Positions 19,730-63,200 are shown, numbered from the stretch's first letter. The stretch is DNA of 64,000 nucleotides from Eledone cirrhosa (GCA_964016885.1 OZ024758.1:31868001-31932000); one strand, 5' to 3'. Program-made: numbers and translations. Notes: a model not told the origin generated them from the letters alone.

Positions 19730-19734
<5 letters not shown>

Positions 19735-19763
<29 letters not shown>

Positions 19764-33700: not shown

Positions 33701-34580
33701 CTGTTTTTCTGCTGTCATTTATCTGTCGCTAGTCGTCAGTGATGCACATGGTCCTGACATTCCAGGTGGCCAGTCCCATTACTGGTGGTTGGGTATGCGG
33801 TTTTTGTTTATTTGATGGTGCAGGGTTTACAGTCTGCTCTTCAGATTTTGTCCTAGCTCCAAGCACCCATTGAAGCGGGGGGCAGACTGTGGCGGGTCAG
33901 CACCATTATTGGCCGGGGGCTGCCCAGCTTAAGGCGGGCGGCAGCTGACCAATGGGACTTCAATGGTCCCTCCCACCGCTAGAGACGGCCCGTAGCGCCT
34001 GGGATTATGCCAATTGACCCGGACTTATAACTCGTAACTGCCATCTCAGCTTGTGCTGTCGCTGGAGTGGTTTCTCCATGGCGCAAGCCTAGGCGGTATA
34101 TACGGAGATACTGGGCTGCCCAGACCTCAGAGTCTCCCTCTCGGCCTCCCAGACGTGATCCAAAGGACTGCAATGCAATACGTTTGCCGGAAAGGGGTCG
34201 AGATTCGGCACCCTACCGCCCTCGGGGCTCCACTTCGGATTTTCTGTCTGGGTTCACTCCCAGAGCCTTTCCCTCTCCCGAGAGCATCCGCAAAGCAGCG
34301 GTGTGAGGGTTTGGAATCAGAGTTTTCCTTCTCCTAGACTAGCTGCCAACCAAGGCTAACGAGCCCAGTCTGCCCACCTGGTTATACCGCCGAGCACCCG
34401 GTCACGCCACACAGCATGCTCAGTGAGAAGAGAGGGTACCACATGAAGGTACTGCTGTGGACACAGTAGTGTAGGAGAGGCCATAAGCAAGAACTTTCCA
34501 CTAGGCAGAGACAAGTAGCAGTGCTGCAGCAATCACTACACGTGGAGAGGAGAGGCTGTGAGAGATGCAATCACTTTCCT
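30737..34580 (-). mobile_element. Full-length but decayed RTE-clade (BovB-like) LINE
   Basis: 5' UTR motif gccttggttggcagctagtctaggagaaggaaaactctgattccaaacc; APE (ATWNVRT, LQET, NENGQRLLELC, WHQLD, DHSLV); RT (NYRGISLL, FVDLAKAFD, GVKQGC, LFADD, FTYLGS); C-terminus GRPHLRYRD..CSNC..HSRIGLFSH. The 5' boundary is approximate. Confidence 0.93.
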
Positions 34581-34589
34581 TTGCCCCCT

Positions 34590-34639
34590 CACACATATAT
34601 ATATATTTATATATATATACGCACACACACACACACACA

Positions 34640-34921: not shown

Positions 34922-35384
34922 AAGCCAGAGGCGGTGATAGAAAACGATCAGGTGAAGGTGGTGTGGGATTTTAGGATACAGACGGACAAGAAACTGGAAC
35001 ACAATAGACCTGACCTGGTGGTTGTGGACAAAGAAAAAAGATCGTGCCTGATTGTGGATGTGGCCTGCCCATTCGACACGAAGAGGGAGAAAATTAACCG
35101 ATACCAGGACTTAAAGTGGGAGGTAAAAAGGATTTGGAACTGCCATGAAGTCAAAGTGGTTCCGATTGTCATAGGCGCACTGGGTACTATCTCAAAAAGT
35201 TTCCAGGGATGGTTAAAGAAAATTGGCCCCTTCACGCTTTTTGGAACGCTTCAAAAGGCATGCTTGCTGGGAACAGAAAGAACCCTCCGATACGTCCTGA
35301 ATATCTGAGGCTGCAGGTAGTGGCTTGATATTCATTTCAACAAACTTTCCAGTTAACTAACATCAATGACTGAGACTCAAAGAG
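34922..35384 (+). mobile_element. R4/Dong-type RLE retrotransposon, 5'-truncated copy 1
   Basis: WDFRIQTD..RPDLVVVDK..VDVACP..KINRYQDL; near-identical to 45878-46352; followed by (AAT)n. Confidence 0.92.
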
Positions 35385-35394
35385 TAATAACAAC

Positions 35395-35436
<42 letters not shown>

Positions 35437-35438
<2 letters not shown>

Positions 35439-38400
35439 TTTCTTTATTGGCCACAAGGGCTGACATCAAGAAAAACATCACAGACGGAACAGGACGGTAC
35501 GATGTGGGTTTTGTGCGTGTAAATATTTTTATTATTTATATAAGAAAAGAAAAAAGACATAAAACATATATATATATAAACAATAAAATGAAAATTGAAA
35601 CAATGAAAAATTCTCCAATAGGGGGGAAACCTCCGAGGGTTACTCGTGGCGAAAACCACACAAAAGACCACGGCCACCCTGACTACCAGGGCAAGCACCC
35701 TCTCTCAATTTTTCCATCTCTCAAACTACAGACGTATATTTAGAGTGGTCCCGTTCACTCGGACCATTCTCGCTACATTCACCCACCTTTCAACAAACTT
35801 GCTAGAAAGCAGCACTTGCCTCTCCACCCTGATTTTCCTCTTCAAGTGAAACTTGAAAAAGTTAATCAGGGATTCGCCGAAGAGGAAAGTGTTTGTCTTT
35901 AATCCTTTTAACCTTGTCCACCACACAATCTCTTTCGCCATGGCCACCAGGCAGATGAAAACCGCCTGCCCTTCCTCCTCAAAGGAAGACGGCGAGACCA
36001 TCTGCACAATGGACTCAGTCGACAACCGGATCAGTCCCACACGTGACAGCAACTGTTCGACATTGCTCCACAAGTCAGCAATGCTCAGGCACTGAACAAG
36101 TGCGTGCACAACGGTTTCGTCGCTATGTGCGCATCTCGGACAGGCTCGGCTGACGGCACTTCCGTGCCTGTAGAGCTTATCTCAAACCGGCAGCACTCCC
36201 CGGTAGCACTGCCAGGCCAGGGATTTTTGGAAGTTATCCATAGGCCCCGGGCTGAAAGTTCTCCGGAAGAGAGCAAGCAGCTGATCTTCTTCGACGCCCA
36301 GGATCTTTCCGAGAACGCCGTCGCTCTTCCCCTCCACTAGTCCTCTATAGAACGCCGAGGTGGATGTTCCACCGATACTGGTGCCCAACTGGGAGAGGGC
36401 AGTGAGCGCCTGGAGACATTCCAGTTTCCAAGCGCTATCCCTCGGTCTTTTTCTGATGACCCAGGACTGCAGCTCCGTCAAGGAGATGAGCTGTGGGAAA
36501 ACGTGCCTGGCGAACGGCGACCACACCTGTTCACCGTCAAGGAAGCACCAGAGATGTCGCAGCCTCAGCGCATGTTTGCGCATCATCAGCCATGGCATGC
36601 CCAGTCCTCCACGCAACGGGTGTTGACAGCAGATGGATCGTCTGACCATGGGAGCGCGTCCCTTCCACAAAAAGCGGCAGAGGAGGCGCTCCATTTTGGT
36701 GAGAGTTGGGTTGGAGCAAGGGACGACGGTGAGGCAGTAGCAGATGACGGATGTGATGTACGCATTCGCCACCTCCGCCCGGCCTTTCAGGGACAGCTTC
36801 CTCTCGGCCCATTTTTGGGTGAGGGAGGCCACCCTGCTCGTCACCTCGTTCCAGTTTTTCTCCATCTGGTCCGGTCCGAACCAGACCCCGAGCAATTTAA
36901 CCTGTCCGTCCGTCCAACGCCCCACGACGCTGTCGGACGGCATGGACTTGCTTCTCCAGATGCCTAGCTGCAAGCCCACCGACTTTTCCTGGTTTATCTT
37001 TGCTCCTGTCACCGTTTCGTATTCCTTGAGAGCGGTGCCGAGCATTTGGACGTGTCTGCGGTGACGTCGTCAGCGTAAGCTGACTCGGAGTTCCCGCATC
37101 CTAGTTCGCGTGGGACGCCCCTCATCGCCCCCAGTTTGTGCAGTAACGGCTCGAGAGCCAATACGTATAAGAGGGACGAGAGGGGGCAACCCTGGCGGAC
37201 TGAGCGCATGATGCTGAACGGCTGCGACAGGTGACCGTTCACCCTCACAACTGAGCAGATGTCGCTGTACATTGCTGCGATCCAACGCCTGAAAACGGGC
37301 CCGAAACCGGCTGCCTCGAGGATCGCCGCCAGGTACCGATGGTCGACCCTATCGAATGCTTTGGATTGATCCAAGTTGATCAGGGCCCCACCCTTGCCAG
37401 GTTCCTTAACCACCCTCTCTATGATGTATCGCATGAGGTGGAGGTTGTCGTGTATGGATCTGTCCGGGATGGCGCATGTCTGCGCCTCTCCCACCAGACC
37501 CTTGACGACAAGCGCCAACCTCGTTGCTAACACCTTGGCCAAAATCTTGAACTCTGCATTTAGCAGAGTTATGGGCCTGAAATTATCAATAACATCCCCC
37601 TTGTTCGGGTCTTTTCTCAGCAGCGCCACTGCTCCCCGGCTCACAAAACTGGGAATGCTCCCGTTCTGCTGCCAGTTGCAGTAGACGTCTGCCAAGAGGT
37701 CACCGAACAAGTCTGGCATAAATGCATAAAGCTCGTAGGGCAGACCATCTAAACCTGGCGATTTACCTCTTGTGCAGTTAGCCATCGCTTCCCGTATTTC
37801 ACCGGCTGTTATTGGCTTTTCGTAACACTGTGCTGCGGTCGTCGAGAGCCGAGGCAGTCCGTCGAGGTATGCACTGAAGTCCATGTCCTGATCCGGGCCG
37901 CCGCCGCTCCCGAACAGTTCAGCAAAGTGCTGCTGAAAAGCTTCACACATCCGCTCGGGTTCGAACATCACGCACCCGTTTTGGTCAGACAAAGACCGAA
38001 TTGTGGATTTATTGCCACGTCGCGCCTCTGCCACCCGGGCCCATTGGACGGCTTTTGTCCCCTCGTGTTTCAGAGCACGCGCACTAGCTCTGACAATGCA
38101 GCCTTCGTGTTTTGCGTTGAAGAATTGGTCGAGTGCCAATCTTGCCGCAAGCACGTCGGTTGCGATACCTGTCCTAAACGCCTCTTCTAGCTTTCTGACT
38201 AGCTCTCCCTCTACTCTATTTTCTTCTATCACTACTCCTTTGCTAAACCTAATCGACTCTACTTTAATTGCCCTTTTCAGGGCGAACCACCACCTGTTGT
38301 TGACGACCGCTCCCGTCAACGCCCGCTTAACTAATACGCTAATCCGGTCTCTGTAGGCCTTGCGCGCCGGGAAAGACGCGTTCAGCTTCCAGGCCCTTGT

Positions 38401-41383
38401 CTATGAAGTCTGTCTATGTCGATCTCACAGATCACAAATTTGTGGTCTGTGTAGTTGATTATTTTAAATTGTGGACAACTTATACTAGCCTTATCTAGTT
38501 CCCTGCAGAATACCCTATCTAGATACGATCTGGATGACCCGATGCGGTTTGTCCATGTCCACATTGGCACATTCGGGTGATCCAGTCGATACCTGTCAGA
38601 CAGTTCAAAACGTCTGAGCAGGTTGCTGAGGCTCTTGCACCCTCCTCCCCTATCCACTAGCCCCACACGATCCCAGTGTGCATCCAAGATACCGTTCCAG
38701 TCGCCCACTAACCCTAAAGAGCGGGACGTTCCAAGAAAGGTCTCTAGACGTCTGAAGAAATCTGGCCGTCCTGCCCCTGTTGGGGCGTAGATGGCTACTA
38801 GCCTGAAAGCATTGCCTTCGCTGCCGGTCACGTCCAGCACCACCGACTTACCTTCTGGGTCCAGGAAGATGGCCCGTATCGCAAGATCCAAGCCTCTCCG
38901 AAAAAGGACGGCAACACCTCCCCCCGATCCTGGACGGCTGGGAGATGCGTATACATCGTAGCCGCCGAAGATCGGTGCGAAGGCCTGTGCCTCGGAGATT
39001 CTGGTTTCACTGATGGCCACCACATCTATGTTTAGTGACCTGAGGTCATTGAGCAGGTGACCCTGCTTCCAAGATGACCCCAGGCCACGTGCATTTATAC
39101 TGCCTATTCTGAGTACAGCCATGTTGGATGAGAAACGGGGCAAATGAGAAAGGGTCACTTACCTTGTTCGTGTGGTGAAGGGACAGTAGAACCGTCCCTT
39201 TCGCTGGTCATGGGTGTTTCCAAGAGGATGTCAGTGTATATCCTCTTGGTAACCGTCCCTGTGAAGTCTCCAACTGCGTTGGGGAATTTTTGTTTTAAAG
39301 GTTTGTATTGTTCAAATGAGATTTCGATGATGCTTATGTTTGTCGGGAGAGTTCTTGGTGTTGGTGGGGTGTAGTAATTTTTTTCCGTGATGTCTGTGTG
39401 CTGCTTTATATATTTTATGAGTTCTTTTTTTGCTATGTTTATATGGCTGTGTACTTTTTGGGGGGAGGGGTGATTTTGTTGCCGTTTTCTTCTTGTTGCT
39501 GTTTGGTGTGTGTGTCTTGTTGTGTTTGCGCTGTTGGTGTTTGTGGTTGTGTTGCTGCAAGTTTCCTTGCTGCCTTTACCCCTCTTTGTATGCCTTCGCT
39601 TTTGGAGGGTGAATCTAAGGGTTTTTTTGTTTTTTGTTTTTTGTTTTTTGTGGCAGACTGTTTGCCACGTCACTCCCGCCTCAAACTCCATGTCGGATTC
39701 TGTGGCGTCTGGGAGGGGTATGTGCTCCACGGCTGTTGGTGGTGGTAATGGAGCCTTCTTCGGCAATGTTGTTGCTGGTGTAGCTATTTCAAATGTAGCT
39801 ATTGGTGTTGCCGCTACTGATGATGCTGCTTTAGTTATCCGTGGCCTTGGTATGGGTGCTACGGACGTTGCCTTCTTACTCACCGTGGAAGGGGCTTCTT
39901 CGTTTGTTGCCTGTCCTGCTCTTGGTAGCAGCGGACCAGGTATTGGAAGGAGAGGGGCCCTCTTCGCTGTCTTCTGCGGGCAAAAGGCCCTGAGGTGACC
40001 CTTTCGACCCACAGAGATAACATTTTGGCCGTCTTCCTTCTACACTTATAGGGAGTTGGAGTCCTTCCTCAAAGTGTATGATATCGGGGATAGCCTCGAT
40101 ACATTCCTGGTCAGTTTGTATAAGCATTTGCATGCCTATACCTGACCAGTTCTCTCTCCCTATTTTTTCTACTTGCAGCATGGTCGCCCTGTTCTCAATT
40201 CCAGCAAGGACAGACGTGGCCAGCCAAGGTATGGGCACGTCGGGTGGGACCTGGGTCACTTTGACCCTCACAATTTTCTGCCCGCAGTAGGAGGGCACCA
40301 AGACTAACTCCTCACTCTTTAGGGTTTCCAAAGAGTGAGACTTTGCTTCCTGGGGGGTGGCGAAAAGTACGTCTACTGTGGCGTACTTTCTGCCTCGGGT
40401 GATGTGGGTTTTGCGTGCCCAGACGCACCCCAAGGCCTTTTGGATTTGCGCCTCCGTGGCTCTCTCCACTCGATGTGAGATTTTGCTTACGGTGCGGTAA
40501 GTCACCGTTCGTAGCTGCTGGTCCTTGAAAAAATCGGGTGGAGGTTTCAGGGAAACTCTATTTGCGCTTCTTGTCACCATGGCCCTTGCGACTGCCATCT
40601 CCTCCTCTGTGACTAACACTGTCTCGATATTTCGGGCGACACCTGCAAAAGAAGTGGTCCCCTTTTCAGCAGGACCACTATTGCTGCCGCTACTGGTCTT
40701 ACTGGTGGTGCTGAGGTCGCTATTACAGGTATCGGTGTCATTGTTGTTCTTTTCGCTGGTACAGTTGTTGGTGTTGTTTTCGTTGATACTGTTGCTGCTG
40801 TTACTGTTATTGTGGCTCTTGTTATTATTGTTGTTTTTGTTGATACTGTTCCTACTATTATTGTTGTTGTGGCTGTTGTTATTGTCATTGTTATTGTCGT
40901 TCTCGACCTTACCGCTGTTATTTTTGTTATTGTCGTTCTCGACATTACCGCTGTTATTTTTGTTATTGTCGTTCTCGACTTTACCGGTATTGTTTGTGTT
41001 AGAAATATTTGTTAATTTTAAATCTGTAACAATCTTTTTTTCCTTTGTAATATTTTCGTTTATATTTACCTCCGCTGGGACGCTGTCTTGTTGACATGCT
41101 GATAAAGTCTCCCTCTCTCTGTGTTGTCTGACAGCGCTCTCTCTCTCTTTTGTGTTATCCATGTTGAAATTTTTCAAAAAATATTTTGACACAAATACGA
41201 ATACGAATACGACACCCCGTAAAGGGGTGCCGTATTATTTACTAGTGAACCCCTGTATTAGGTGGGTCACTTCTTCTAAACTTTTATCAAATTTAAAACT
41301 TGAATAAAAGTTTTAGAACGGTTGAAAAAGAGGTAAAACGTTGAAAAAGACTGGAGGCGATAAGAAGCGTGGTTTCACCAACC
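35437..41383 (-). mobile_element. Tx1/L1-clade retrotransposon copy A, full length, frameshifted
   Basis: ORF1 (~41192-39155, CCHC knuckle split by a frameshift); ORF2 from 39122 with APE (SINARGL, ISETR, GDWN, SYLDR, TDHK), RT (KSPGLDG, NFRPITLLN, DQSKAFDRVD, VRQGCPLS, AYADD) and zf-RVT; (AAT)n on both flanks. Confidence 0.95.
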
Positions 41384-41398
41384 AATAATAATAATAAT

Positions 41399-44300
41399 AT
41401 AAGAAGACGCACGTGGTGGATAGAAGGTCATGAAATTGCTCCCGTAAGTTTTTGATTTTTAACATATTTAAATCAATTGTGAAATAACAATTCTTAGTAC
41501 AAATGATACATAAAGCACCAGACTCAAGTCTCAGAAAAATTCGGATCCATAATATATTGTTATATCGCTCAAATATTCAATTTTGTATTATACATTTTAT
41601 ATTCAAAAAAGAAAATGGTTATAAATGGAAGAAAACCCCCTCTGTCTACACTATATAGAACAGCCAAATAACAGCAATTTCACCAACACCACAAACTAGA
41701 TACACCACCTATACCATCACTCCTTTGTGTACACTAAATACAACAGCCAGATAACGGTAATTTCACCACCACCACCACAAATCCCAACATAATAGTTATA
41801 ATTACTGTTATTATTGTCTCAAGTTTTCACAAAATGTTTAATTCCAATATTAAGATAATATGTCAACACATATATTAAACATACGCGACTAACCGCATAG
41901 ATTCACCGATCAAACAAAACTACAGTCTATTCAACAAAACTCAGTAACGACAACGCCATCACTATAGTCACCGCCGCCACCACTCCATCCATCATTGCTA
42001 CCACTATCCCATCACCGCCGCCACCACTCCTTCATTGCTACCACCGCTATTCCCCCATTACCTTCTGTTAACTTACGAAGGGGGAAGGTGGCGGTATCAC
42101 TAGACAATATTAATAAACAATATTAATATTTAATTTTGGATCAGGAATGTTGGAGTCTAAAAGGAGGAAAATGGCAAAATGACTAAATAGCTAAATAGCT
42201 AAAGATAATTTCACCACCAACAGCACCACCACTACCACGCTAAAAACTCTGGTCAAGTTGCCTCAACCTCTCAACCTCTATTTCTACTTCAACTTCAACA
42301 CCATCACTACAGTACTACGATCACATCACCACCACCACTGCCTCATTATCGCTACCACCGCTATTCTCTCCCACTATCTCCTGCTAGGTACTACTAGCAC
42401 AGCACCACCACTGCCTCATTATCACTACCGCCGCTATTCTCTCCCACTACCTCCTGCTACATCGTAGTGTCCCCACTAAAAGAGGAAGGCATCAAAATAT
42501 ATAAATAGACTGAATTGATAACCCGGTCAAAATCAAAAAACCAAAATCAAAATCAAAGCAGCACAGCAACAACGAAAAACGTAAAGAAAAAAAAAATGAA
42601 TAGAAGAACAAACAGACGGACAGAGAAGGGAAGGGAAAAACTAAGTCAGACATTCAAACATTACATTACAATGAAATTTATGCTTATTCATTTTTTTTGG
42701 GGGGGGTGGGGGGGGGGGGGGTTGCCTGTTTGTTTGTTTGTTTATTTTAGTTCGTTTACAGCGTGATAATGCCACACAAAAATCACCGGGAGTGACGAAA
42801 TCACCGGAGGTGATGAAATCACCGGTGGTTATGTAACCATACATTCGCCAATCCTCGATAAGAGTGTTTAAATGTCGAACCTAAACAGTTCGGATAACGG
42901 TGAAGTGGAGACTAGAATGTCATGTGACAGACTCTCACCCAACAGGTGCTCCCTGGCTGTCAACCAAATACTGCTGGTGTCGGAGGAAGAAGAAGAAGGA
43001 AAGGGACCAGAACCAACTGGACGAAAGAATTGAATAGAACTGTTATGCAATGTTACCTGAAGAGTAACCCCAAGGAGAAAGGCTATAGGAAACGGATGCA
43101 TAACATCTGGAACGAGATTGGTCTATTTAAATTAGATGAACAAAAATTGGCCGGGCAGGCTCGGGTAATAAGAACTACTGGGTGGATAAGCAAGCTGGAA
43201 CTGGAGGAACTGAGCAGAGAGATTAGCTTGGAAATGGAGAGTGGAGTATGCCAGGCAAACGAGCCAGTGGGAAATGAAGGTGAAGAGGTCGAGAGAACGG
43301 AGGAACCATCCGAAGCAGACAATGATCTGAATGCTGAAATAAATAATACCTGGAACAGAGATACGGCCACCGAGGAGATGAATGCTGACGGGCTAGGACA
43401 AGATTTGGTTGATATCCTAAACTTAGTGGTAGATGAATTGAACAATGATAGTGGGAAACCTATGAACCTAAGATTTGTAGACAGGAAAAAGTTAAAAGAA
43501 ACAACAGCTAAGGTAAACAAAGTCATCCCATACCTTGAGGCGAGGAGCCTTCACCAGTGCAACAATATCCTCAAAGCAACAGCAAATACGGTGAGGAAAT
43601 TACTTCGTATAAAAGCGAGAGGAAACAACAAACAAGAAAGATCAGAGCCTTGGTGGAAGAAACGACTGAGTGGTCAAATCAGGGAAATGAGAAATGACAT
43701 TGGAAAGCTTGAGTCCCTACTGAATGGGCCACTAAAAAACATAGACACTAAAAATAGACTGGAAATAAAGTACAAAACTAGGAGGAAAAAGCTAAATATT
43801 ATCATAGAGGAACTGAAGCAACGCATTGTAGCAAAGAGTGCAAAAATCAGGCGATACGAGAACAGAGTCAGTCAGTATAGACAGAACCGCATGTTTGACA
43901 ACAACCAGAAGATGCTGTTTGGACAGCTTGAAGGGAAAGAAAGAGGCAACGACTTGATCCCTGAGGCGGAACAAACTAAAACATTCTGGAGAGGAATATG
44001 GGAGCAGGATGTTAAACATAATTACCAGGCAGTGTGGATTGAGACAGTACAGAAGGAGATTAGTGAACAGGCACACCAACAAACTGATTTGAGTATCACA
44101 GTTGAAACTCTTAAGGGGCAGGCCAAAAAACTAACCAACTGGAAATCACCAGGCCCAGATGGTGTGCAGAGGTATTGGATTAAAAATATAACATCCCTCC
44201 ACCCGAAACTGACAACCATGTTCAATGACTGCTTGATGTCAGGTGAGGTACCAGAGTGGTTGACAAGAGGTACCACAGTTCTGATAATGAAAGACCGAAT

Positions 44301-46352
44301 CAAGGGTAATGATGTTACCAACTATAGACCTATCACATGTCTGTCCGTAATGTGGAAACTATTGACAAGCATTATGTCTGAGGAAATCTACCATCACCTC
44401 CACACAAACAACTTGTTACCGGACGAACAGAAAGGATGCCGAAAGAAGTCCCGTGGTACAAAGGACCAGTTACTTATTGATAAGATGGTAATGAGGAATT
44501 GCAAGAGGAGACACACTGGTCTTGCCATGGGATGGATATACTACAAAAAGGCATTTGACATGGTGCCTCATTCTTGGATCACCAAAAGCCTAGAGATCTT
44601 CAAGGTGGCAGATAACATCAGACAGTTGTTGGGCAAAAGTATGAAGTCCTGGGAAACAGAGTTAACATCAGCTGGAGAATCCTTGGGAAGCGTGAAGATC
44701 AAGAGAGGTATCTTCCAGGGAGATAGTCTGTCCCCTCTGTTGTTTGTCCTTGCCCTGATGCCCCTGACCATTATACTGCGAAAAGTGAGAGCAGGATACA
44801 GGTTGGGAAAGGGAGGGCTTACCATCAATCACCTCCTCTTCATGGACGATCTTAAGCTCTTCGGGAAGAGTGAGAAGGAGTTGGATGTGCTTGTTGACAC
44901 TGTCCGTATTTTCAGCAATGATATATGTATGCAATTTGGTATTAGTAAGTGTGGAGTCCTTGTGATGAAGAGGGGTAAATTGAGCAGAAGCAACGGAATC
45001 CAGGTACCAACAGGTGAGATGATAAAGGAAATTGACACTGAAGAAGGATACAAGTATTTGGGTGTTCTGGAGGCTGATGACATCAAGAACAAAAAATTGA
45101 AGGAATTGATAAGAACTGAATACATTCGGAGAGTAAGGAGCGTATTAAAGTCACATCTGAACAGTAGGAATGCCATAAGTGCAGTAAATTCCCGAGCTGT
45201 GTCTATTATTAGGTAGAGTGCGGGAATTCTGAGATGGAATGTTGCTGAACAAAAAGAAATGGATAGGAAGACTAGGAAGCTATTGACTATCTACAACATG
45301 TTCCACAAGAGGAGTGATGTCGATAGACTCTACTTAAGGAGATCTGAAGGTGGAAGAGGTCTTATCAGCATAGAGGACTGTGTTCAGATGGAAAAAAACA
45401 ACCTACACAAATACGTGACTGATAGTAAGGAGCCAATGCTCAGAACTGTACTGAAGGAGAGGACAATAGACCAGGGGATGTCCAAGGAGGAAATAACATC
45501 AAGGAGAAAGAGCAGCCTTCAGGAAAAATCCCTTCATAGTACCTTCTTTGAGAAAACTGAATTCAGAGATCCACAGACATGGAACTGGTTGAAAAGAGGA
45601 GACCTTAAAAAGACTACAGAAGGAATGTTAATGGCTGCGCAAGAGCAGGCCCTCAAAACGAAGTGGTTGAAACACCATATTTACAAGGAGGAGGCTAGCC
45701 CACTGTGCAGGATCTGTGGAGAGAGAGAGGAGACTATGGCTCACATTGTATCCGAGTGTAAACACCTAGCCCAGACTCACTATAAAGGCTGGAGACATGA
45801 TGTGATGGGCAGGGTGATCCACTGGCACCTATGCAAAGTAAACAATTTACCACATTCTGAGAAGTGGTATGAGCATAAGCCAGAGTCGGTGATAGAAAAC
45901 GATCAGGTGAAGGTGCTGTGGGATTTTAGGATACAGACGGACAAGAAACTGGAACACAATAGACCTGACCTGGTGGTTGTGGACAAAGAAAAAAGATCGT
46001 GCCTGATTGTGGATGTGGCCTGCCCATTCGACACGAGAGTGCAAGAGAAGGAGAGGGAGAAAATTAACCGATACCAGGACTTAAAGTGGGAGGTAAAAAG
46101 GATTTGGAACTGCCATGAAGTCAAAGTGGTCCCGATTGTCATAGGCGCACTAGGTACTATCTCAAAAAGTTTCCAGGGATGGTTAAAGAAAATTGGCCCC
46201 TTCACGCTTTTTGGAACGCTTCAAAAGGCATGCTTGCTGGGAACAGCAAGAACCCTCCGATACGTCCTGAATATCTGAAGCTGCAGGTAGTGGCTTGATA
46301 TTCATTTCAACAAACTTTCCAGTTAACTAACATCAATGACTGAGACTCAAAG
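41399..46352 (+). mobile_element. R4/Dong-type RLE retrotransposon, near full length (5' boundary inferred)
   Basis: Bounded by (AAT)n tracts and contains a single long RT-RLE ORF; 41399-42870 is assumed to be 5' UTR. Confidence 0.85.
42946..46278 (+). pseudogene. RT + CCHC + restriction-like endonuclease ORF with one in-frame TAG (45214-45216)
   Basis: NWKSPGPDG, NYRPITCL, EQKGC, GIFQGDSLSPLLF, LFMDDLKL, YKYLG; CRICGEREETMAHIVSEC; RHD; PD..D..K RLE motif. ORFs 42946-45216 and 45259-46278 are in the same frame. Confidence 0.95.
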
Positions 46353-46370
46353 AATAATAATAATAATAAT

Positions 46371-47160
46371 TTAGAGATCCACAGACATGGAACTGGTTAA
46401 AAAGAGGAGACCTTAAAAAAGCTACAGAAAGAATGCTAATGGCTGCACAAGAGCAAGCCCTCAGAACGAAGTGGGTGAAACACCATATCGACAAAGAGGA
46501 GGCTAGCTCACTGTGTAGGATCTGTGGAGAGATAGAGGAGACTGTGGCCCACATTGTATCCGAGTGTAAACACCTAGCCCAGACTCACTATAAAGGCTGG
46601 AGACATGATGTGATGGGCAGGGCGATCCACTGGCATCTATGTAAAGTATACAATTTACCGCATTCGGAGAAGTGGTATGAGCATAAGCCAGAGTCGGTGA
46701 TAGAAAACGATCAGGTGAAGGTGCTGTGGGATTTTAGGATACAGACAGACAAGAAATTAGAACACAATAGGCCTGACCTGGTGGTTTTGGACAAGGAAAA
46801 AAGATTGTGCCTAATTGTAGATGTAGCCTGCCCATTTGACATGAGAGTGCAAGAAAAGGAGAGGGAGAAAATTAACCAATACCAGGATTTAAAGTGGGAG
46901 TTAAAAAGGATTTGGAACTGCCATGAAGTCAAGATCGTCCCGATTGTCATAGGAACACTAGGTACTATCTCAAAGAGTTTCCAAGGATGGTTAAAGAACA
47001 TAGTCCAGCTCCACTTTTTGGAACACTTCAAAAGGCATGCTTGCTGGGAACAGCAAGAACCCTCCGATACGTCCTGAATGTCTGAGGCTGCAGGTAGTGC
47101 CTTGATATTCATTTCAACAAACTTTCCAGTTAAATAACATCAATGACTGAGACTCAAAGA
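46371..47160 (+). mobile_element. R4/Dong-type retrotransposon, 5'-truncated copy 3 (diverged)
   Basis: Colinear with 45562-46352, with scattered substitutions and a frameshift; (AAT)6 on both sides. Confidence 0.93.
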
Positions 47161-47180
47161 ACAATAATAATAATAATAAT

Positions 47181-50100: not shown

Positions 50101-52809
50101 TTGGAACTGGCTGATCAGGTTCTTGAGGCTTTTGCACCCCCCCGCTCCTATCGGATACTCCCACACAGTCCCAGCGTACGTCTAAGATGCTGTTCCAGTC
50201 CCCCGCTAACAGTAAAGGGCGAGACGTACCCAGAAAGGCTTCCAGGCATCTAAAGAAGTCCGGCCGTCCTGCCCCAGTAGGAGCATAGACGGCCACCAGT
50301 CTAAAGGCACCACCTTCATTATTGTTCACGTCCAGGACCACCAACTACCCGTCCAGGTCTCGGAAGATCGACCTTACCTCGAGATCCAGGCCTTTCCTAA
50401 ACAGCACTGCCACCCCGCCTCCCATTCCCGGCCGACTAACAGATGCAAAGATCTGATAGTCGTCGAATATGGGGGCTAGTGCGCGCGTGCTGGAAATCCT
50501 GGTCTCGCTGACTGCAATTACATCCATTTCTATAGACCTGAGGTCGTTGAGCAGGTCACCCTGCTTCCAGGACGATCCCAGGCCTCGAACATTTAAACAT
50601 CCTACTCTTAATACGGCCATGTTGGCAGGTTAAACAGAGAGAGAAGGTTTACTTACCTTCCGGGCTCTTGTGAAGGTCGGGTTGTTCGACCTCCAGAGTT
50701 AGTGGGGTTTCTTTTGGGAACTCCTTTAAAAGTCTTGAAGTGGGTTTTACGTTCGGGGTTCCCACGTCCCGAGGAAAGCTGTCTCGTATTTCTTTGAATA
50801 TGTCGAGCGACATTCGCACCAGAACCAAATCTTCCGGCACGCGAAATGTGCTCGATTTAAAAATGTCCTCCTCTTTTTGTATATTTTCACTTCGTGCTAC
50901 GAGGGCCATCAGTTCCTTGTTGGCCCTCCTGACGAGCATGAAGTTTTGTATGTTTTGTTGGTGTGATTTTATTTGTTTGCGTGGCTGTGGTGGTGATGGT
51001 TTTGGTGGTGTTGTTTCGGTTGTATCTGTGTTTGTTGTGAGTGCGGTGTCTGTGGTTTCAGATGTTTGTGTGTATATTTGTTCTTGCGTCTGTTTCGGTT
51101 GTTTGCGTTTGGGGGATGATGGTGATGGTGATGGTGATGTTGATGTTGGTGTTATTGGAGAGATGTTTGCGTGGGTGGTGTCTGCGTTTTTTATTGTGGG
51201 TGCTTTTGTGCTTTGTTGAGTTTTTTTTTCTTTTTGTGTTTCCTTTTTTGTATTTTGGGGGATTTTGGATTTCCCTCATTTTCACTACTGGTAGATGAGG
51301 GGTCTGTGTCTGTAAGTGTGTCTGTATGTATGTTTAAGGTTTTATTGGTGTGTGTATTTTGGGGGGGAGGGGGAATTTGACAGCTTTCCTCGTTTCCCCT
51401 CTGGGAGGTCAATGTTGGTGGTGGTCTTTCTATTGGTGTTTTTGTTGGTGGTTTTGCCGGTGCAGGTGTTGGTTGTGGTCCTCGCCCCGGCGTCAGCAGC
51501 AGTGGAGCCTTTCGACCCCTTGCCTCTTTCAGCAGTTGAGGGCAGAAGGCTCGCAAATGGGTTTTTTCCCCACAAACAAAACACTGCGGCCTTTTGCCTT
51601 CGGTCATAATGTGAATGACCGTCCCATTCTGAAGGCGGATGTGGTCTGGGATTGTCTTCACATTCTCGGGCCTGATCTGGAGAAGGATCTCCAGGTCAAC
51701 GCCGGACCAGTCCTCTCTGGCCATTCTGGTCACTTCTATAGGGACTGTATCCATCCCCTCCACAATCACACATCCCAGAAGCCACCACATGTCAAGTCCT
51801 GGTGGGATTCTGGGAATGCGGAGACGGGCCGTTCTTTTTCCCATGTGGGAGGGGTACATTATGACCTTGCTGGTTTTGCAAGGAGTCATAGCGTGTTTCA
51901 TAGCGAGGGCTTCTGACTTGGACAACACCGAAATGGTGCCGTACTGTCTGCCCCTCTCTATGTACAGGGTGTCTTCTCTGATGCACCTCAGCGCGACTTC
52001 GACATCTTCTTGTGGGATTAACGCTGCCCTTTTGGTTTGTGCTGAGATGCATCTATAATGCACCGTTTTGCGCTCCACTGCCTCAATAGCTTCTATCGGG
52101 ACAGTTAAGTTGGCCCAAGTTTGCTCTTGCTTGATGAGCTTCCATGCCTGGGCCAACTTTTCATCTTTGTTTGAGAGGTCCATGTTGAAGCATGGCCTCT
52201 TTTTTTGCTGCTGCCGCAGCGAAAGTGGTCTTGTTTTCGTTGGGGGTGTTGTTGACGTTGTTCTTGTTGGTGTTGTTGTTAGCACTGTCGCTGTTATCAT
52301 TGTTGTCTTTGTTGCCACCGTTGTTCTTGGTGCAGTTGGTATTGTTGCTGTTGGTGTTGTCGCTATTTGTTTTCATGTTAGTGGTGTTGATATTGTTGTT
52401 GTATTTGTTATTTTTTTTTTTGTTATGTGTATTTTCGTTGTCGCTGTTACTGTCATTTTTTTCAAAATTAGTGTTCTTATTGGTATCATTGGTGTCTTTG
52501 TTTACCTTGTTTGTGGTGGTGTTTGTGTTATCAATGTGTGTTAATTTCGCTGTAGTGCTCCTCTCAACTTCTACGTCGTTGTCGCACGACAGCCGACATA
52601 TCGCTGTGGCGCGTGGCTAAGCCATGTTTTTTTACTTCGTAAATTATTTTAACATGTAAAAAAAAGTTCAAATATTATACTTTCCCCTTCACGGGGCAAA
52701 GTCTACGGGCTTATATCCCTTACGCAACAAGAAATATTTAACAACAAATAATTTAAACAGGCAAATAAACCGACTTACTGTGAGCGAGCAAAATACGTCC
52801 GCTTAGACC
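47181..52809 (-). mobile_element. Tx1/L1-clade retrotransposon copy B (different subfamily), full length
   Basis: ORF1 with CFVCGEKTHLRAFC; ORF2 from 50620 (GCLNVRGL, GDWN, YSDHK, NFRPITLLN, AYADD); (AAT)n flanks; small internal deletions. Confidence 0.95.
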
Positions 52810-52836
52810 AATAATAATAATAATAATAATAATAAT

Positions 52837-55800
52837 GGTTTCTTTATTGGCCACAAGGGCTAACACGAAAGAAAACATTAGAGACGGCACAGAACAGTTC
52901 AGGACGATACAAAGTGGGTTTTGGTCGTGTAAATAGGTTATAACAAAATTGGGCTATAAATAAAAAAAAATTCAAACAACAAAAATTCCCCAAGAAGGAG
53001 AAAACCTCCGAGGTGAAAGTCACACAAAAGACCACGGCCACCCTGACCACCAGGGAAAGCACCCTCTCTCACTTTCCCACTCCTCAGTCTACAGGCGCAT
53101 ACTTAGAGCAGGCCCGTTCACTCGGACCAGACTCGCCACTTTCATCCACCTTTCAACAAACTTACTAGGAGACAGCATTTGACTCTCCACCCTCATTTTC
53201 CTCTTCAAATGAAACTTGAAAAAGTTAATCAAGGATTGGCCGGAGAGGAAAGTGTCTGTCTTCAACCCTTTCAACCTTGTCCACCACACAATCTCTTTCG
53301 CCATGGCCACCAGGCAGATGAAAACTGCCTGCCCTTCCTCCTGTTTAAAAGAGGATGGCGGAGCTATCTGCACAATGGACTCAGTCGATAACCGGATCGG
53401 TCCTACACGCGACAGCAGCTGTTTGACATAGCTCCACAAGTCAGCAATCCTCGGGCACTGAACGAGTACGTGCAGGATGGTTTCGTCGCCCTGCGCGCAT
53501 CTTGGACAGGCTTGGCTGACAACACCTCCGTGCCTGTAGAGCTTATCCCGAACCGGCAACGCTCCCCAGTAGCACTGCCAGGCCAGGGATTTCTGGAAGT
53601 TGTCCATAGGCCTCGGGCTGAAAGTACTCTTGAAGAGAGCGAACAGCTAATCGTCTTCGATGCCCAGGGCTTCCCCGAGAACGTCGTCACTCTTTCCCTC
53701 CACTAATCCTCTATAGAACGCCGAGGTGGATGTTCCACTGATACTAGTGCCCAGCTGGTAGAGGGGGGGGTGATCGCTTGGAGAAATTCCAGCTTCCAAG
53801 CGCTATCCCTCGGTTTTTTCCTGATCCAGGACTGCAGCTTTGTCAAGGAGACGAGCTGGAGAAAAGCATGTACGCATTCGTCACCTCCGCCCGATCTTTC
53901 AGAGACAGCTTCTTCTCGGCCCATTTCTGGGTAAGAGAGGCCACCCTGCTCGTCACCTCATTCCAGTTTTTCTCCATCTGGAGGTCCGGACCGAACCAGA
54001 CCCCAAGCAATTTAACCGGTCCTTCCGTCCAGTGCCCCATGACGCTGTCGGACGACATGGACTTGCCTCTCCAGGTGCCGAGTTGCAAACCCACCGACCT
54101 TTCCTGGTTGATCTTTGCTCCTGTCACTGCTTCGTATTCCTTGAGAATGGTGCCGAGCATCTGGACGTGTTTGGTGCTCGACACCACCACGGTGACGTCA
54201 TCGGCGTAAGCTGACACGGATCTCCCGCATCCCAGTTCGCGTGGAACACTCCTCATCGTCTCCAATTTGTGCAGTAACGGCTCGAGGGCCAGTACGTACA
54301 AGAAGGACGAGAGGGAGCAACCCTGGCGGACCGAGTGCTTGATGCTGAAAGGCTGCGACAGGTAACCATTCACCCTCACAATCGAGCAGATGTCGCTGTG
54401 CATCACAGCGATCCAGCCCCTAAAAACGGGCCCAAAGCCGGCCGCCTTGAGGACCGCAGCTAGGTACCGATTGTCGACCCTATTAAATGCTTTAGATTGA
54501 TCCAAGTCGATCAGGGCCCCCACCCGTGCCAGGTTCCTTAACCACCCTCTCTATGATGTAACGCATGAGATGGAGGTTGTCGTGGATGGATCTGTCTGGA
54601 ATGGCACATGTCTGCGCCTCTCCCACCAGATCACCGATGACAAGCGCCAATCTCTTAGCTAACACCTTGGCCAAAATCTTAATATCTGCGTTTAGCAGAG
54701 TTATGGGCCTGAAGTTGTCTATAACGTCCCGCTTGTTCGGGTCTTTTCTCAGCAGCGCCACCGCTCCCCGGCTCACAAAACTGGGAATGCTCCCGTTCAG
54801 CTGCCAGTTGCAGTAGACATCTGCCAAGAGGTCGCCGAACAAGTCTGGCATATACGCATAAAGCTCGTAGAACAGACCATCAAAACCTGGTGATTTACCC
54901 CTCGTGCAGTCAGACATTGCTTCCCGTATTTCACCTGCTGATATTGGCTTTTCGCATCACTGCGCTGTGGTCATCAAGAGCCGCGGCAGTCCGTCGAGGT
55001 ATGCACCGAAGTCCATACTCCGATCCGGCCCGCCGCCGTTCCCAAACAATTGAGCAAAGTGCTGCTGAAAAGCCGCACACATCTGCTCGGGTTCGAGCAG
55101 CATGCGCCCGTTTTGATCAGGCAAAGACCGAATTGTGGAATTGTTGCCACATCGTGCCTCCACCACCCGGGCCCATTGAACGGCTTTCATCCTCTTGTGT
55201 CTTAGAGCACGCGCTCTAGCTCTGACAGCACAGCCTTCATGCTTTGCGTTGAAGAAATGGTCGAGTGCCAATCTCGCCACAAGCACGTTGGTTGCGATGC
55301 CTGTCCTAAACACCTCTTCTAGCCTTCTAACTAACTTTCCCTCTACACTATTTTCCTCTATTACTACTCCTTTGCTAAACCTTATCGGTTCTACTCTAAT
55401 AGCCCTTTTCAGGGTAAACCACCATCTGTTGTTGACAATCGCACCCATCAACGCACACTTAACTAATTCGCTAATCCGGTTTCTGTAAGCTTTGCGTGCC
55501 GGGAAAGACGCCTTCAGCTTCCAGTAACCGGGCCCTTGTCTATGGAGTCTATCTAAGTCAACCTCACAGGTCACGAATTTGTGGTCCGTGTAGTCGACTA
55601 CTTTAAGTTGTGGACAACCTACACTAGTCTTATCTGTTTCCCTACAGAATACCCTATCTAAATACGATCTGGATGACCCAATGCGGTTTACCCAATTCCA
55701 CATTGGTACATTGGACAATCCAGTCTATACCTGTCAGATAGTTCAAAATGTCCGAGCAGGTTGTTGAGACTTTTACACCCTCCTGCCCTGTCTACTAGCC

Positions 55801-58440
55801 CCACATAATCCCAGCGTGCATCTAAGATATTGTTCCAGTCGCCCACTAACACTAAGGAGCGAGACGTTCCAAGAAAGGTCTCTAGACGTCTGAAGAAATC
55901 TGGCCGTCCTGCCCCTGTTGGGGCGTAGACGACTACTAGCCTGAAAGCATTGCCTTCGCTGCCGGTCACGTCCAGCACCACCGACTTACCTTCTGGGTCC
56001 AGGAAGATGGCCTATATGGCGAGATTCAAGCCTCTCCGAAAAAGCACAGCAACACCTCCCCCCGATTTTGGACGGCTGGGAGATGCGTATACATCGTAGC
56101 CACCGAAGATCGGTGCGAAGGCTCGTGCTTCAGAGATTCTGGTCTCGCTGATAGCCACCACATCTATGTTTAGTGATCTGAGGTCGTTGAGCAGGTGACC
56201 CTGCTTCGAAGATGACCTCAGGCCACGTACATTTATACTGCCTATTCTAAGTATGTCCATGCTGGACGTACTTAGAATAGGCAGTATTCTAAGTGAGAAA
56301 GGATCACGTACCTTGATCGTGTGGGGAAAGGACAGTAGAACCGTCCCTTCGGCTCGTCATGGGTGTCTCCAAGATGACATCTTTATAGATTCTCTTGGAG
56401 AGTGACCCCCTGAAATCCTCAACTCCGTTGGGGAATTTTTGTTTTAATTGTTTGTAGTCTTTGAGTTCAATTTCCACAATGTTAATGTTTTTTGGTAATG
56501 TTCTTGGTGTTGGTGGGGTGTGGTAATTTACGTCTGAAATATTGGTGTGTTGTTTTATATGTTCCATTAGTCCTTGGTGTGCAATGTTTATGGGTGTGTA
56601 ATTTTTAAGGGGAGGGGTGATTTTGTTGCTGTTTTCTTGTTGCTGTTGGGTGTGTGTGCTTTGTTGTGTTTGTGATGTTGGTGTTTTTGGTGATGCTGGT
56701 GGTGGTGTGGTTGTTGTTGGTGGTGATGCTTGTAGTGGTGGTGGTGGTGGTGTTGCTGCAAGTCTCCTTGAAGCCTTTACCCTTCTTTGTTTGTCCTCGC
56801 TTTTGGAGGGCGAAGCTAAGTGGTTCTTTCGTTTTTGTTTTTTGTTCAGACCTCTTTCTACTTCACTCCCGCCTCATACTCCATGTCAGATTCCGTGGCA
56901 TCTGGGAGGGGTATGAGCTCCATGGCTGTTGGTGGAGCAGCTACTGTGACTTGGTATTGCTGTTTTAGTTGTCCGTGGCCTTGGTATGGGTGCTACGGAC
57001 GTTGCCCTCCTACTCACCATGGAAGGGTCTTCGGCCTCTGTTGCCTCCCCTGCTCTTGGTAGTAGCGGATCAGGCGTCGGAAGGAGGGGGGCTCTCTTCT
57101 TGGCTGTCTTCTGCGGGTAGAAGGCCCTGAGGTGACCCTTCTGCCCATAGAGATAGCACTTTGGGCACCTTCCTTCCACGCTTATAGGGAGTTGGAGTCC
57201 TTTCTCGAGGTCTATGATATCTGGGATGGCCTCGATGCACTCCTGGTCAGTTTGTATTAGCATTTGCATGCCTATTCCTGACCAGTTCTCTCTTCACATT
57301 CTCTGTATTTGCAGTATGGTGGTCCTGTCCTCGATTCCAGCAAGTACAGACGCGGCCAGCCAAGGTATGGGCACATTGGGCGGGACCTGGGTCACTTTGA
57401 CCCTCACAATTTTCTGCCCGCAGTAGGAGGGCACCAAGACTATCTCCTCACTCTTTAGGGTTTCCAAAGAATGAGACTTCGCCTCTTGGGGGGGTGGCGA
57501 AAAGTACGTCTACTGTGGCATACTTTTTGCCTCGGGTGATGTGGGTTTTGCGCGCCCAGACGCACCCAAGGCCTTTTCAATTTGAGCCTCTGTGGCTCTC
57601 TCCACCCGATGTGACATTTTGCTTACTGTGCGGTAAGTCACCGTGCGTAGCTGCTGGTCCTTGAAGAAATCGGGTGGAGGTTTCAGGGAAACTCTATTGT
57701 CGTTTCTTGACACCATGGCTCTTGCGACTGCCATCTCCTCCTCCGTGACTAGCACTGTTTCTATATTTTGGGCCACACCTGTGAAAGAAGTGGCGCCTTT
57801 TTCAGCAGCACCATTATTGCTGCCGCTACTGCTGTTACTGGTCTTGTTGTTGGTGCTGTTGCTGTTGCTGTTGCTACTGCTACAAACGGTGTTGTTGGTG
57901 TTGTTGCTGTTATCACTGTTGTAGTTGGTTGTGTTTTTTGGTGCCACCGTTGTTGTTGTTTTCGGTGCAGTTTGTATTGTTGCTGTTGGTGTTGTCGTTG
58001 TTTATTTTCTTGTTAGTGATGTTAATATCGTTGTTGCATTTGTTGTCATTTTTTTCTGTTGTCTGTACTTTGGTTGTCGCTGTTACTGTTGTAGTTGGTG
58101 TGGTTATTTTCTAAAAATTAGTGTTCTCAGTGTTGTTGTCATTGCTGTCTTTGTTCACATTGTTTGTTGTGGTGTTTGTTGTATCAATTTCTGTAACCCT
58201 CCTCTCAACTTTTACACCGTTGTCACATGACAGCAGACATATTGCTGGGGGGCGTGGCTCAGCCAAGTTTTGAAAAAAATTTTAAAAAGTAAAATGTTCA
58301 AATATTATACTTTCCCCTTCACAGAGCAAAGTTCAAGGGCTTATATCCCTTACACAACAAGAAAAATTTAACAACAAATAATTATAACAGGTAAATAAAG
58401 TGACTTACTGGGAGTGAGCAAAAAGACATCCGAACAGACC
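52837..58440 (-). mobile_element. Tx1/L1-clade retrotransposon copy C (B-type 5' end, A-type body)
   Basis: ORF1 core and ORF2 closely match copy A; 57900-58440 matches copy B 52300-52809; (AAT)9 on both flanks. Confidence 0.95.
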
Positions 58441-58467
58441 AATAATAATAATAATAATAATAATAAT

Positions 58468-60168
58468 GTTTTCTTTATAAACCACAAGGGTTTACATAAA
58501 GTAGACATTAAGGACAGTACAGGACAATACAGGACGGTACAAATGGGCATTTCTGCGTGTAAAAAAACAGAGGATGTAATAAAAATAACAAAGAAAAATT
58601 CCCCAATAGGGGGGAGACTTCCGAGGGACATTTGTGGAGAAAGCCCGTTAAAAGACCACAGTGACCCTGACCACCAGTCCACAGTGACCCTCTCCCAGTT
58701 TTCCACCTTTAATTTACAGACACATACTCAGAGTAGCCCCATTCACTCGGGCCATACTTGCTTCTCTCACCCATCTTTCAACAAAATGCTGGGAAGAGAG
58801 CACTTCCCTCTCTACCCTGATTTTCCTTTTCAAATGAAATTTGAAAAAGGTAATCAGGGCATCACCGAAGAGGTAAGTGCTCGTCTTCAGCCCTTTCAAA
58901 CGTGTCCACCATACTATCTCTTTCGCCATGGCCACCAGACAGATAAAAACTGCCTGCCTTTCCCGGCTAAAGGAAGAGGGCGGGGCAATCCTCACGATGG
59001 ACTCAGCTGGTAGCTGGATCCGTCCTACACGTGACAGCAGGTGTTCGACATAAACCCACAAGTCAGCAATGCTCGGACACTGGACGAGTGCGTGCAGGAC
59101 GGTTTCGTCGCCCTGCGCGCATCTCGGACATGCCCGGCTGACGGCACCTCCATGCCTGTAGAGTTTATCCCGAACTGGTAAAGCTCCCCGGTAGCACTGC
59201 CAGGCCAGGGATTTCTGGAAGTTGTCCATAGGCCCCGGCCCGAAAGTCCGTCCGAAGAGATTGGCTAGTTGATTTTCGTCGACGCCTAGAGTTTCTCCAA
59301 GTACGTCGTCGCTCTTCCCCTCCACTAATCCTCTATAGAACGCCAATGTGAAGTTTCAACCGATCACATTGCCTGATTGGTCGAGGGCTGTGAGCGCCTG
59401 AAGACATTCCAGTCTCCAAGCGCTCCCTTTCGGTCTTCGCTTGACCCAGGACTGCAGCTCCGTCAAGGAGACAAGCTGGGGAAAGACATGTCTAGCAAAC
59501 GGCGACCACACCTGATCACCGTCGAGGAAGAGGTGGAGATCTCGTAGCCTGAGCGCGTGTCTGCGCATCATCAGCCACGGCATGCCCAGCCCTCCACGTA
59601 GCGGGTGTTGACAGCAGATGGACCGCCTGACCATCGGAACGCGTCTTCCACAAAAAGCGAAAGAGCAAACGCTCCAGCGCAGTCAGGCGGGGCTTAGGAC
59701 AAGGTACGGCGGTCAGGCGGTAGTAGATGACGGACGCGATGTACGCGTTAGCCACCTCCGCTCGACCTTTCAGGGATACCTTCCTCTCCGCCCATTTCTG
59801 GGTGAGAGAAGCCACCCTGCTCGTCACCTCGTCCCAGTTTTTGTCCGTCTGGAGGTCCGGACCGAACCAGACCCCTAGCAATTTAACCGGTCCGTCCACC
59901 CAGCGCCCAACCACGCTGTTGGACAGCATGGACCTGCCTCTCCAGGTGCCGAATTACAGGCCCACCGACTTTTCCTGGCTGATCATTGCTCCTGTTATCG
60001 CCTCGTATTCTCTTAGTATGGTGCCGATCACCTTGATGTGTTTGGCTTTCGACACCACTACGGTGATGTCGTCTGTATATGCTGATACGGTTCTTCCGCA
60101 TCCCAGTTTGTGTGGGACCCCAACTCAACGTCTCCAGTTTGTGCAGTAATGGCTCGAAAGTCAGGGCC
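58468..60168 (-). mobile_element. Tx1/L1-clade retrotransposon copy D, 5'-truncated
   Basis: RT C-terminus to zf-RVT (ACPRCAQGDETVLHALVQC) plus 3' UTR abutting (AAT)9. Confidence 0.93.
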
Positions 60169-60169
60169 A

Positions 60170-63066: not shown

Positions 63067-63145
<79 letters not shown>

Positions 63146-63146
<1 letters not shown>

Positions 63147-63199
63147 AATAATTGTTTCTACTTTAGGCACAAGGCCAGCAATTACCCAGTGCATTACTG
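63146..63199 (-). mobile_element. SINE tail interrupted by the long-TIR element
   Basis: ataattgtttctactttaggcacaaggccagcaattacccagtgcattactg, then an abrupt switch in sequence. Confidence 0.75.
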
Positions 63200-63200
63200 C

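What the first reader, a model, noticed from the sequence alone, without database searches (positions are those of the whole stretch)
34922..60168. 25-kb retrotransposon array at an (AAT)n microsatellite shared by two unrelated site-specific clades in opposite orientations
Seen: seven consecutive non-LTR copies, with an (AAT)n tract at every junction (35385-35436, 41384-41398, 46353-46370, 47163-47180, 52810-52836, 58441-58467). The three RLE copies are all plus strand and end in (AAT)n. The four APE Tx1/L1-clade copies are all minus strand and run into (ATT)n on their own sense strand; none is nested inside another. Established: Dong (R4 clade) elements target TAA repeats, and some Tx1-clade families (Kibi, Koshi) target TC/TTC microsatellites. 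Inference: an ATT-targeting Tx1 lineage has converged on the Dong target but primes on the opposite strand. Each insertion regenerates target repeats, giving a self-extending multi-family landing pad. The strict orientation also means read-through from one clade is antisense to the other.
Basis: partly seen in the sequence, partly recalled or inferred. Interest (0 to 1): 0.85.

Follow-up and report, generated by a model that had tools for sequence, protein, structure and literature searches.

The report
Two retrotransposon clades share one microsatellite
Seven jumping-gene copies of two unrelated kinds sit end to end in one AAT/ATT repeat, each kind facing its own way here and across the genome, likely because their enzymes start on opposite strands of the repeat; sister elements in the same genome sit in an ATCT repeat instead, which would let one test how such enzymes pick a target.

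Summary
Observation confirmed and generalised. The array holds three plus-strand Dong/R4-like copies and four minus-strand Tx1-like copies (73-88% alike), with AAT tracts at all six inner junctions; the two outer ends lack one. Genome-wide, Tx 3' ends run into ATT (30 of 30), all 54 exact 5' ends on contig C1 follow ATT and none AAT, and 10 of 16 5'-truncated copies do too (background 0.08%). Dong shows the mirror (26 of 37 truncated copies follow AAT). Added here: an abundant tRNA SINE shares the Tx 3' end and makes ~14-bp duplications beginning ATTATT; sister Tx1 families (~70% alike) use ATCT/AT instead, and differ at one endonuclease hairpin position (Ile versus Ser/Asn). Precedents exist for each half of the pattern (Keno/Utopia; TRAS/SART; Dong), so this is a new variant. 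Nicking, expression and long-read support are untested; Repbase could not be checked. This scan reported the same system twice, and a TATC sister once, on other pieces of this genome.

The parts
34922..35394 (+). Dong/R4-like copy 1, 5'-truncated (RLE end and 3' UTR); 5' flank is A12, not AAT
   Evidence: 95% to 45877-46370; sequence
35395..35436 (.). (AAT)14 tract, tail-to-tail Dong/TxA junction
35437..41383 (-). TxA, full-length Tx1-like element (ORF1; ORF2 APE-RT-zf, split over several frames)
   Evidence: Pfam Exo_endo_phos, RVT_1, zf-RVT; ends fixed by genomic copies
41384..41398 (.). (AAT)5 tract, head-to-head TxA/Dong junction
41399..46352 (+). Dong/R4-like copy 2, full length: 1.5-kb 5' UTR, one ORF (RT, CCHC, RLE) broken by a stop at 45214-45216
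   Evidence: 5' end shared by 8 other full-length copies
46353..46370 (.). (AAT)6 tract, head-to-tail Dong/Dong junction
46368..47162 (+). Dong/R4-like copy 3, 5'-truncated, with short overlap with the tract at its 5' end
   Evidence: 92.5% to 45560-46370
47163..47180 (.). (AAT)6 tract, tail-to-tail Dong/TxB junction
47181..52809 (-). TxB, Tx1-like element with its 5' end, internal deletion near 47660
52810..52836 (.). (AAT)9 tract, head-to-tail TxC/TxB junction
52837..58440 (-). TxC, Tx1-like element with TxB-like 5' region and TxA-like body; deletion near 53868
58441..58467 (.). (AAT)9 tract, head-to-tail TxD/TxC junction
58468..60176 (-). TxD, 5'-truncated Tx1-like copy; no ATT at its 5' junction

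Best explanation
The array is a stack of seven retrotransposon copies of two unrelated kinds, separated by short AAT/ATT tracts and oriented by kind, that likely grew by repeated targeted insertion, with the Tx1-like enzyme predicted to nick the AAT strand and the Dong-like enzyme the ATT strand. Shown: both kinds have the tract on both sides, including many 5'-truncated copies, with near-absolute polarity. Inferred: in target-primed reverse transcription the nicked strand is the one complementary to the RNA, so ATT on the Tx sense strand means priming from the AAT strand, and the reverse for Dong. Inferred: the Tx RNA's own AUU repeats pair with the primer, since no poly(A) is copied although a poly(A) signal lies just before the end. 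Inferred from the SINE and sister families: the Tx machinery needs only a core like ATTATT and duplicates about 14 bp, so each insertion leaves usable repeats on both sides and the next element lands between, not inside, earlier ones. The tRNA SINE likely borrows this Tx machinery and seeds new ATTATT sites. The endonuclease is likely the main selector; sister families with a changed hairpin residue use ATCT/AT.
For: TxA 3' 30 of 30 ATT, TxA 5' 30 of 30, TxC 5' 29 of 30, Dong 3' 28 of 30 AAT (3 or more units; each set includes the window's copy); TxB 3' 28 of 30 with 2 or more ATT. Unranked census: 54 exact TxA 5' ends on C1, 21 with TTATT at exact spacing, of the other 33, 31 with 3 or more ATT units and 2 with (ATT)n then (GTT)3, none AAT. 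5'-truncated: TxA 10 of 16 with 3 or more ATT, 12 of 16 with 2 or more, none AAT; Dong 26 of 37 AAT, none ATT, full-length 8 of 8, 13 junctions not visible. Background 1.2% (2 units) and 0.08% (3 units). Poly(A) at 0 of 39 TxA ends. SINE duplications in 47 of 82 copies, 9-24 bp, mode 14, starting ATTATT; SINE 3' end aligns with Tx 3' ends. Catalytic APE and RLE domains.
Against: 4 of 16 truncated TxA and 11 of 37 truncated Dong junctions lack the tract, as do both outer ends of this array. Pooled census has exceptions: Tx 3' ends 163 ATT, 3 AAT, 22 none or short of 188; Dong 3' 76 AAT, 1 ATT, 7 none of 84 (one exception counted twice; the 22 were not inspected and may include ATCT-group tails). 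The SINE is not confined to microsatellites (10 of 64 5' ends have 2 or more ATT), so the target is short and a role for primer annealing cannot be separated from cleavage specificity. Duplication length cannot be read inside pure tracts. The hairpin difference coincides with one clade, so it is one evolutionary event, not a correlation.
Confidence: 0.7

Rival explanations
1. The Tx endonuclease is only loosely AT-preferring, and the apparent specificity comes from the RNA: only nicks whose 3' end can pair with the AUU (or AUCU) repeat carried at the RNA end are extended. Target switches would then be tail switches.
For: No poly(A) is copied (0 of 39); SINE duplications begin with the same letters as the SINE's own end; SART1 can start at internal target-like sequences that may anneal to the target (PMC7265360, passages); the hairpin loop's shape mattered more than its sequence in L1 (PMC1950540, passages).
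Against: Long ATT runs lie on the 5' side of full-length and truncated copies, longer than a 6-bp annealing needs; swapping endonucleases moved specificity between SART1 and TRAS1 (PMC7265360, passages).
Confidence: 0.2
2. Insertion is not targeted; copies in AT-rich repeats simply survive, and the tracts are slippage tails of the upstream element.
For: Many 5' flanks are tails of another Tx or SINE copy.
Against: Tails cannot explain ATT at 5' ends whose neighbour is not a known element, nor truncated copies, nor polarity; sampled genome has only 41 tracts per Mb.
Confidence: 0.05
3. The array arose by tandem duplication, recombination between tracts, or misassembly.
For: No public contig spans the array; TxC is mosaic.
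Against: The Tx copies are 73-88% and the Dong copies 92-95% alike; the TxC mosaic is shared by 10 of 12 other TxC loci; the same junction types occur on many chromosomes and in an unselected 10-kb sample (L281).
Confidence: 0.04

Closest known systems
Dong (R4 clade; Bombyx Dong, DongAg, snail DongBg); Dong-R4 families of Octopus vulgaris
   Same: RLE element flanked by TAA/AAT on its sense strand; TAA target stated in PMC3812793 (passages); Dong-R4 and L1-Tx1 both listed as recently active in O. vulgaris (PMC13282606, parts 1-2 of 3 read).
   Different: Nothing found that differs, except sharing tracts with a Tx1-like lineage; no named Dong/R4 protein was available for a tree.
Microsatellite-targeting Tx1 families: Kibi (TC), Koshi (TTC), crocodilian TTCC/TTTC families
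   Same: APE, two ORFs, microsatellite target, tandem copies, a SINE mobilised with the same preference (SINEU/Tx1-Mar) (PMC4494074, passages).
   Different: Targets ATT and ATCT/AT; lineage lies apart from the Xenopus Tx1/Tetraodon BAC82605/alligator group in my trees. Fig. 3 and supplements of that paper, which list more targets, could not be seen.
Keno (Tx1, APE) and Utopia (NeSL, RLE) at U2 snRNA genes
   Same: APE and RLE elements converged on one target in parallel (PMC4640811, passages).
   Different: There both share the same 3' flank in a gene; here the target is a dispersed microsatellite used in opposite directions.
TRAS1 and SART1 at (TTAGG)n
   Same: Two families insert into one repeat in opposite directions (PMC7265360, passages).
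   Different: Both are APE elements at telomeres; here two endonuclease classes, genome-wide.

Membership tests
Tx1 clade | Two ORFs; ORF2 with N-terminal APE, RT and C-terminal zinc-binding region | tested here: met
Tx1 clade | RT closer to Tx1 than to mammalian L1 | tested here: met
   Xenopus Tx1 ORF2 189 bits versus human L1 ORF2 117 bits, same query, phmmer
Tx1 clade | Monophyly with named Tx1 families to the exclusion of L1 families | tested here: inconclusive
   trees lacked L1 references and deep nodes were weak; lineage not nested in the Xenopus/Tetraodon/alligator group
Kibi/Koshi lineage | TC or TTC target and clustering with fish families | tested here: not met
   target ATT; separate clade; which element BAC82605 represents was not given by any search
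Target-specific family (Kojima criterion) | One repeat type in more than 20% of flanks (PMC4494074) | tested here: met
   54 of 54 on C1
Dong (R4 clade) | Single ORF with RT, CCHC and PD..D/ExK nuclease | tested here: met
   weak match to R2 RLE, E 0.002
Dong (R4 clade) | Flanked by TAA repeats on both sides | tested here: met
Dong (R4 clade) | RT clusters with R4/Dong rather than HERO or NeSL | not testable with these tools
   no named R4, Dong or HERO protein among the 120 listed homologues
LINE/SINE partner pair | Shared 3' end and shared target signature | tested here: met
   about 20-nt shared end; ATTATT-led duplications; mobilisation itself untested

The most novel reading that the evidence does not exclude
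One cephalopod-type Tx1 radiation is caught switching microsatellite targets (ATT versus ATCT/AT) through a single residue of the endonuclease hairpin (Ile versus Ser/Asn), while its SINE, at roughly 300,000 copies, seeds ATTATT sites that grow into polarised landing pads shared with an unrelated RLE clade, and co-targeting subfamilies exchange 5' ends in those pads.
Probability: 0.2. Interest if true: 0.75.

Novelty: new variant of a known kind. Interest (0 to 1): 0.5.

Why it matters
How APE endonucleases acquire a sequence target is still poorly understood, and loop grafts between distant elements did not transfer specificity (PMC1950540). Here close relatives (endonucleases 54-62% identical) in one genome use different repeats, which makes a clean swap experiment possible. 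The finding also explains a class of TE hotspots in octopus-like genomes as products of targeting, gives a likely motor for a very abundant SINE, and warns that AAT microsatellite markers there often sit beside young insertions.

Tried and rejected
Idea that TTA is a one-base shift from Koshi's TTC by descent: not supported by trees. Long-read or independent support: no RNA holder listed; contigs of four runs cover both families but skip the repeat and none spans the stretch; no evidence either way. Viral contigs gave no relative. A DNA search for the ATCT family returned nothing because common words are skipped; exact patterns worked. No whole-genome count of Dong-Tx tail-to-tail junctions was obtained. 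No intact ORF2 among 21 long TxA copies. IQ-TREE timed out; FastTree used. Literature: searches found no report of an ATT- or ATCT-targeting Tx1 in cephalopods; Repbase, Kojima and Fujiwara 2004, Ohshima and Okada 1994 and supplements of PMC4494074 were not readable. Ages of the seven copies were not estimated, since nearest-relative identities depend on which ends I searched.

Full report
Observation. Three plus-strand copies encode RT, a CCHC knuckle and a PD..D nuclease that weakly matches R2 structures; four minus-strand copies encode APE, RT and zf-RVT. The middle Dong-like copy is full length (41399-46352), with a 1.5-kb 5' UTR whose start is shared by 8 other copies. The Tx copies are different subfamilies, 73-88% alike, so the array is not a tandem duplication. 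The two outer ends have no adjoining tract. The window lies on C19 of a 3.0-Gb genome; its repeat landscape looks octopus-like to me, which is an inference, not an identification.

Genome-wide test. With queries that stop at the element boundary, TxA 3' ends run into 3 or more ATT units in 30 of 30 loci, TxA 5' ends follow ATT in 30 of 30, TxC 5' ends in 29 of 30, and Dong 3' ends run into AAT in 28 of 30; TxB 3' ends have 2 or more ATT in 28 of 30. These sets are similarity-ranked, so I also took every exact TxA 5' end on contig C1: 54 of the 196 genome-wide. 21 have TTATT at exact spacing; of the other 33, 31 have 3 or more ATT units and 2 have (ATT)n then (GTT)3; none has AAT. The decisive class is 5'-truncated copies, whose flank cannot be part of the element: TxA 10 of 16 with 3 or more ATT (12 with 2 or more, 4 without, none AAT); Dong 26 of 37 with AAT, 11 without, none ATT, 13 further junctions out of view. 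In 80 evenly spaced 10-kb samples the chance of 2 or 3 units within 6 bp is 1.2% and 0.08%, and there are 33 tracts of 5 or more units; the slack allowed differed slightly between scripts (6-14 bp). A pooled census of all fetched loci gives Tx 3' 163 ATT, 3 AAT, 22 none or short; Tx 5' 143 of 143 ATT; Dong 3' 76 AAT, 1 ATT, 7 none; Dong 5' 13 AAT, 2 none. The Tx exceptions are places where the tract itself flips from ATT to AAT.

Landing pads are common. Across the tract, 103 of 155 element ends meet another Tx, Dong or SINE copy, 29 of them Tx-Dong pairs, and 3 of 103 break the polarity rule; 19 of 66 sides of sampled tracts do. One unselected sample fell on a Dong array (L281). At least five different 5' ends (A, B, C and two more, confirmed as Tx by endonucleases 74-89% identical to TxA) and a second Dong family (41% to the first type) use the same tracts. 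TxC has a TxB-like 5' region on a TxA-like body in 10 of 12 loci, and one locus joins a TxC 5' end to a TxB body, suggesting 5'-end exchange.

A partner SINE. A 184-bp tRNA-type SINE has 85 tail-bearing ends in 0.8 Mb (about 300,000 genome-wide by extrapolation). It ends in a short ATTATT, shares its last ~20 nt with the Tx 3' ends, and faces the same way as Tx at tracts. It is not confined to microsatellites (10 of 64 5' ends have 2 or more ATT), which lets the duplication be read: 47 of 82 copies have one, 9-24 bp, mode 14, beginning ATTATT in the host copy after a pyrimidine. If Tx mobilises it (inferred), the target core is about 6 bp and each insertion in a tract regenerates 4-5 units. 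I could not match it to the octopus OK/OR1/OR2 SINEs, known to me only as cited in PMC4758252 and PMC5804259 (passages).

A second target in the same lineage. The samples also held Tx relatives about 70% alike that end in (ATCT)n and stack head to tail. Two tail patterns have 5,083 and 1,893 exact matches. Among the first 30 of each: 24 ATCT, 1 AT, 5 other; and 18 ATCT, 10 AT, 2 other; none ATT. By eye about 9 of 16 and 9 of 9 visible truncated 5' junctions have ATCT, AT or a clear 14-18-bp duplication. ATT and ATCT families form one clade (support 1.0); the ATCT group is a clade (1.0) and the ATT families are unresolved around it (0.2-0.3). The endonuclease hairpin that probes the minor groove in L1 (PMC1950540, passages) reads NRIGSS in five ATT subfamilies and has Ser or Asn in place of Ile in all six ATCT-group sequences seen; other positions differ too, and this is a single evolutionary contrast. 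The sister lineage, found as head-to-tail arrays in animal-like contigs inside a bacterial MAG, has no microsatellite at its junctions yet shares a 35-nt 3' stretch with a long variant of the SINE. So tandem stacking appears older than ATT targeting, which is likely derived.

Mechanism. Polarity implies that Tx primes on the AAT strand and Dong on the ATT strand (inference from established target-primed reverse transcription). No poly(A) is copied at 0 of 39 TxA ends although a poly(A) signal lies 6 nt before the end, so priming likely starts on AUU repeats in the RNA, as proposed for SART1 (PMC7265360, passages). Whether cleavage or annealing is the main selector cannot be told from sequence; I give 0.7 to endonuclease-led and 0.2 to annealing-led targeting.

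Known systems. Dong targets TAA (PMC3812793, passages); Tx1 families target TC, TTC, TTCC and TTTC (PMC4494074, passages); Keno and Utopia show APE/RLE convergence on one site (PMC4640811, passages); TRAS and SART use one repeat in opposite directions (PMC7265360). Cephalopod TE papers list Dong-R4 and L1-Tx1 without target analysis in what I read (PMC13282606 parts 1-2 of 3; PMC8967140 passages). The RT is closer to Xenopus Tx1 (189 bits) than to human L1 (117 bits), but clade membership was not shown by a tree with L1 references, nor Dong against HERO. My nine paper searches found no ATT- or ATCT-targeting Tx1; Repbase and the figure and supplements of PMC4494074 were out of reach and may already list one.

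Verdict. Real, genome-wide and well supported; a new variant assembled from known behaviours. Earlier notes of this scan describe the same system on other pieces of this genome and a TATC sister; my reading was set down before each look-up and they are not independent support. Interest 0.5, mainly for the testable ATT/ATCT switch.

Noticed in passing
L191-L229, L233, L237 (CAXXMW01 contigs 2-18, titled uncultured Arenicella MAG): These contigs of a GTDB species genome consist of head-to-tail 6.4-6.8-kb Tx1-type LINE arrays with intact-looking ORF2, most likely animal host DNA; no microsatellite at the junctions, target unknown.
   Followed up: partly
L247, L249, L251, L255, L276, L306, L312; L348-L407: Abundant sister Tx1 families in the same genome that end in and follow (ATCT)n or (AT)n and form their own arrays.
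   Followed up: yes
L409, L411, L414, L415, L417, L418, L430, L431: Many TxA 5' junctions have one to three GTT units between the ATT tract and the element start, echoing the element's first letters; possibly slippage during second-strand priming.
   Followed up: no
window 30740-34590 (-) and 60200-62770 (+): Two RT-bearing LINEs of another kind (RTE-like by recall) flank the array; the first lies between (AT)n tracts and appears to end in ATC repeats; the second is 77% like 3332-5115.
   Followed up: no
window 63142-63200: 3' end of the same SINE, truncated, next to a long (AT)n tract; 63350-63481 and 63869-64000 are 99% inverted repeats, possibly a young MITE.
   Followed up: no
window 19730-20796: 1.07-kb (TATG)267 array.
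   Followed up: no
L285 (G000:C4:230000001-230010000): Cluster of many tandem SINE copies separated by their duplications, with Dong fragments.
   Followed up: no
L172, L321, L120: Tail-to-tail pairs of the same clade where the tract flips from ATT to AAT, forming short palindromic junctions.
   Followed up: partly
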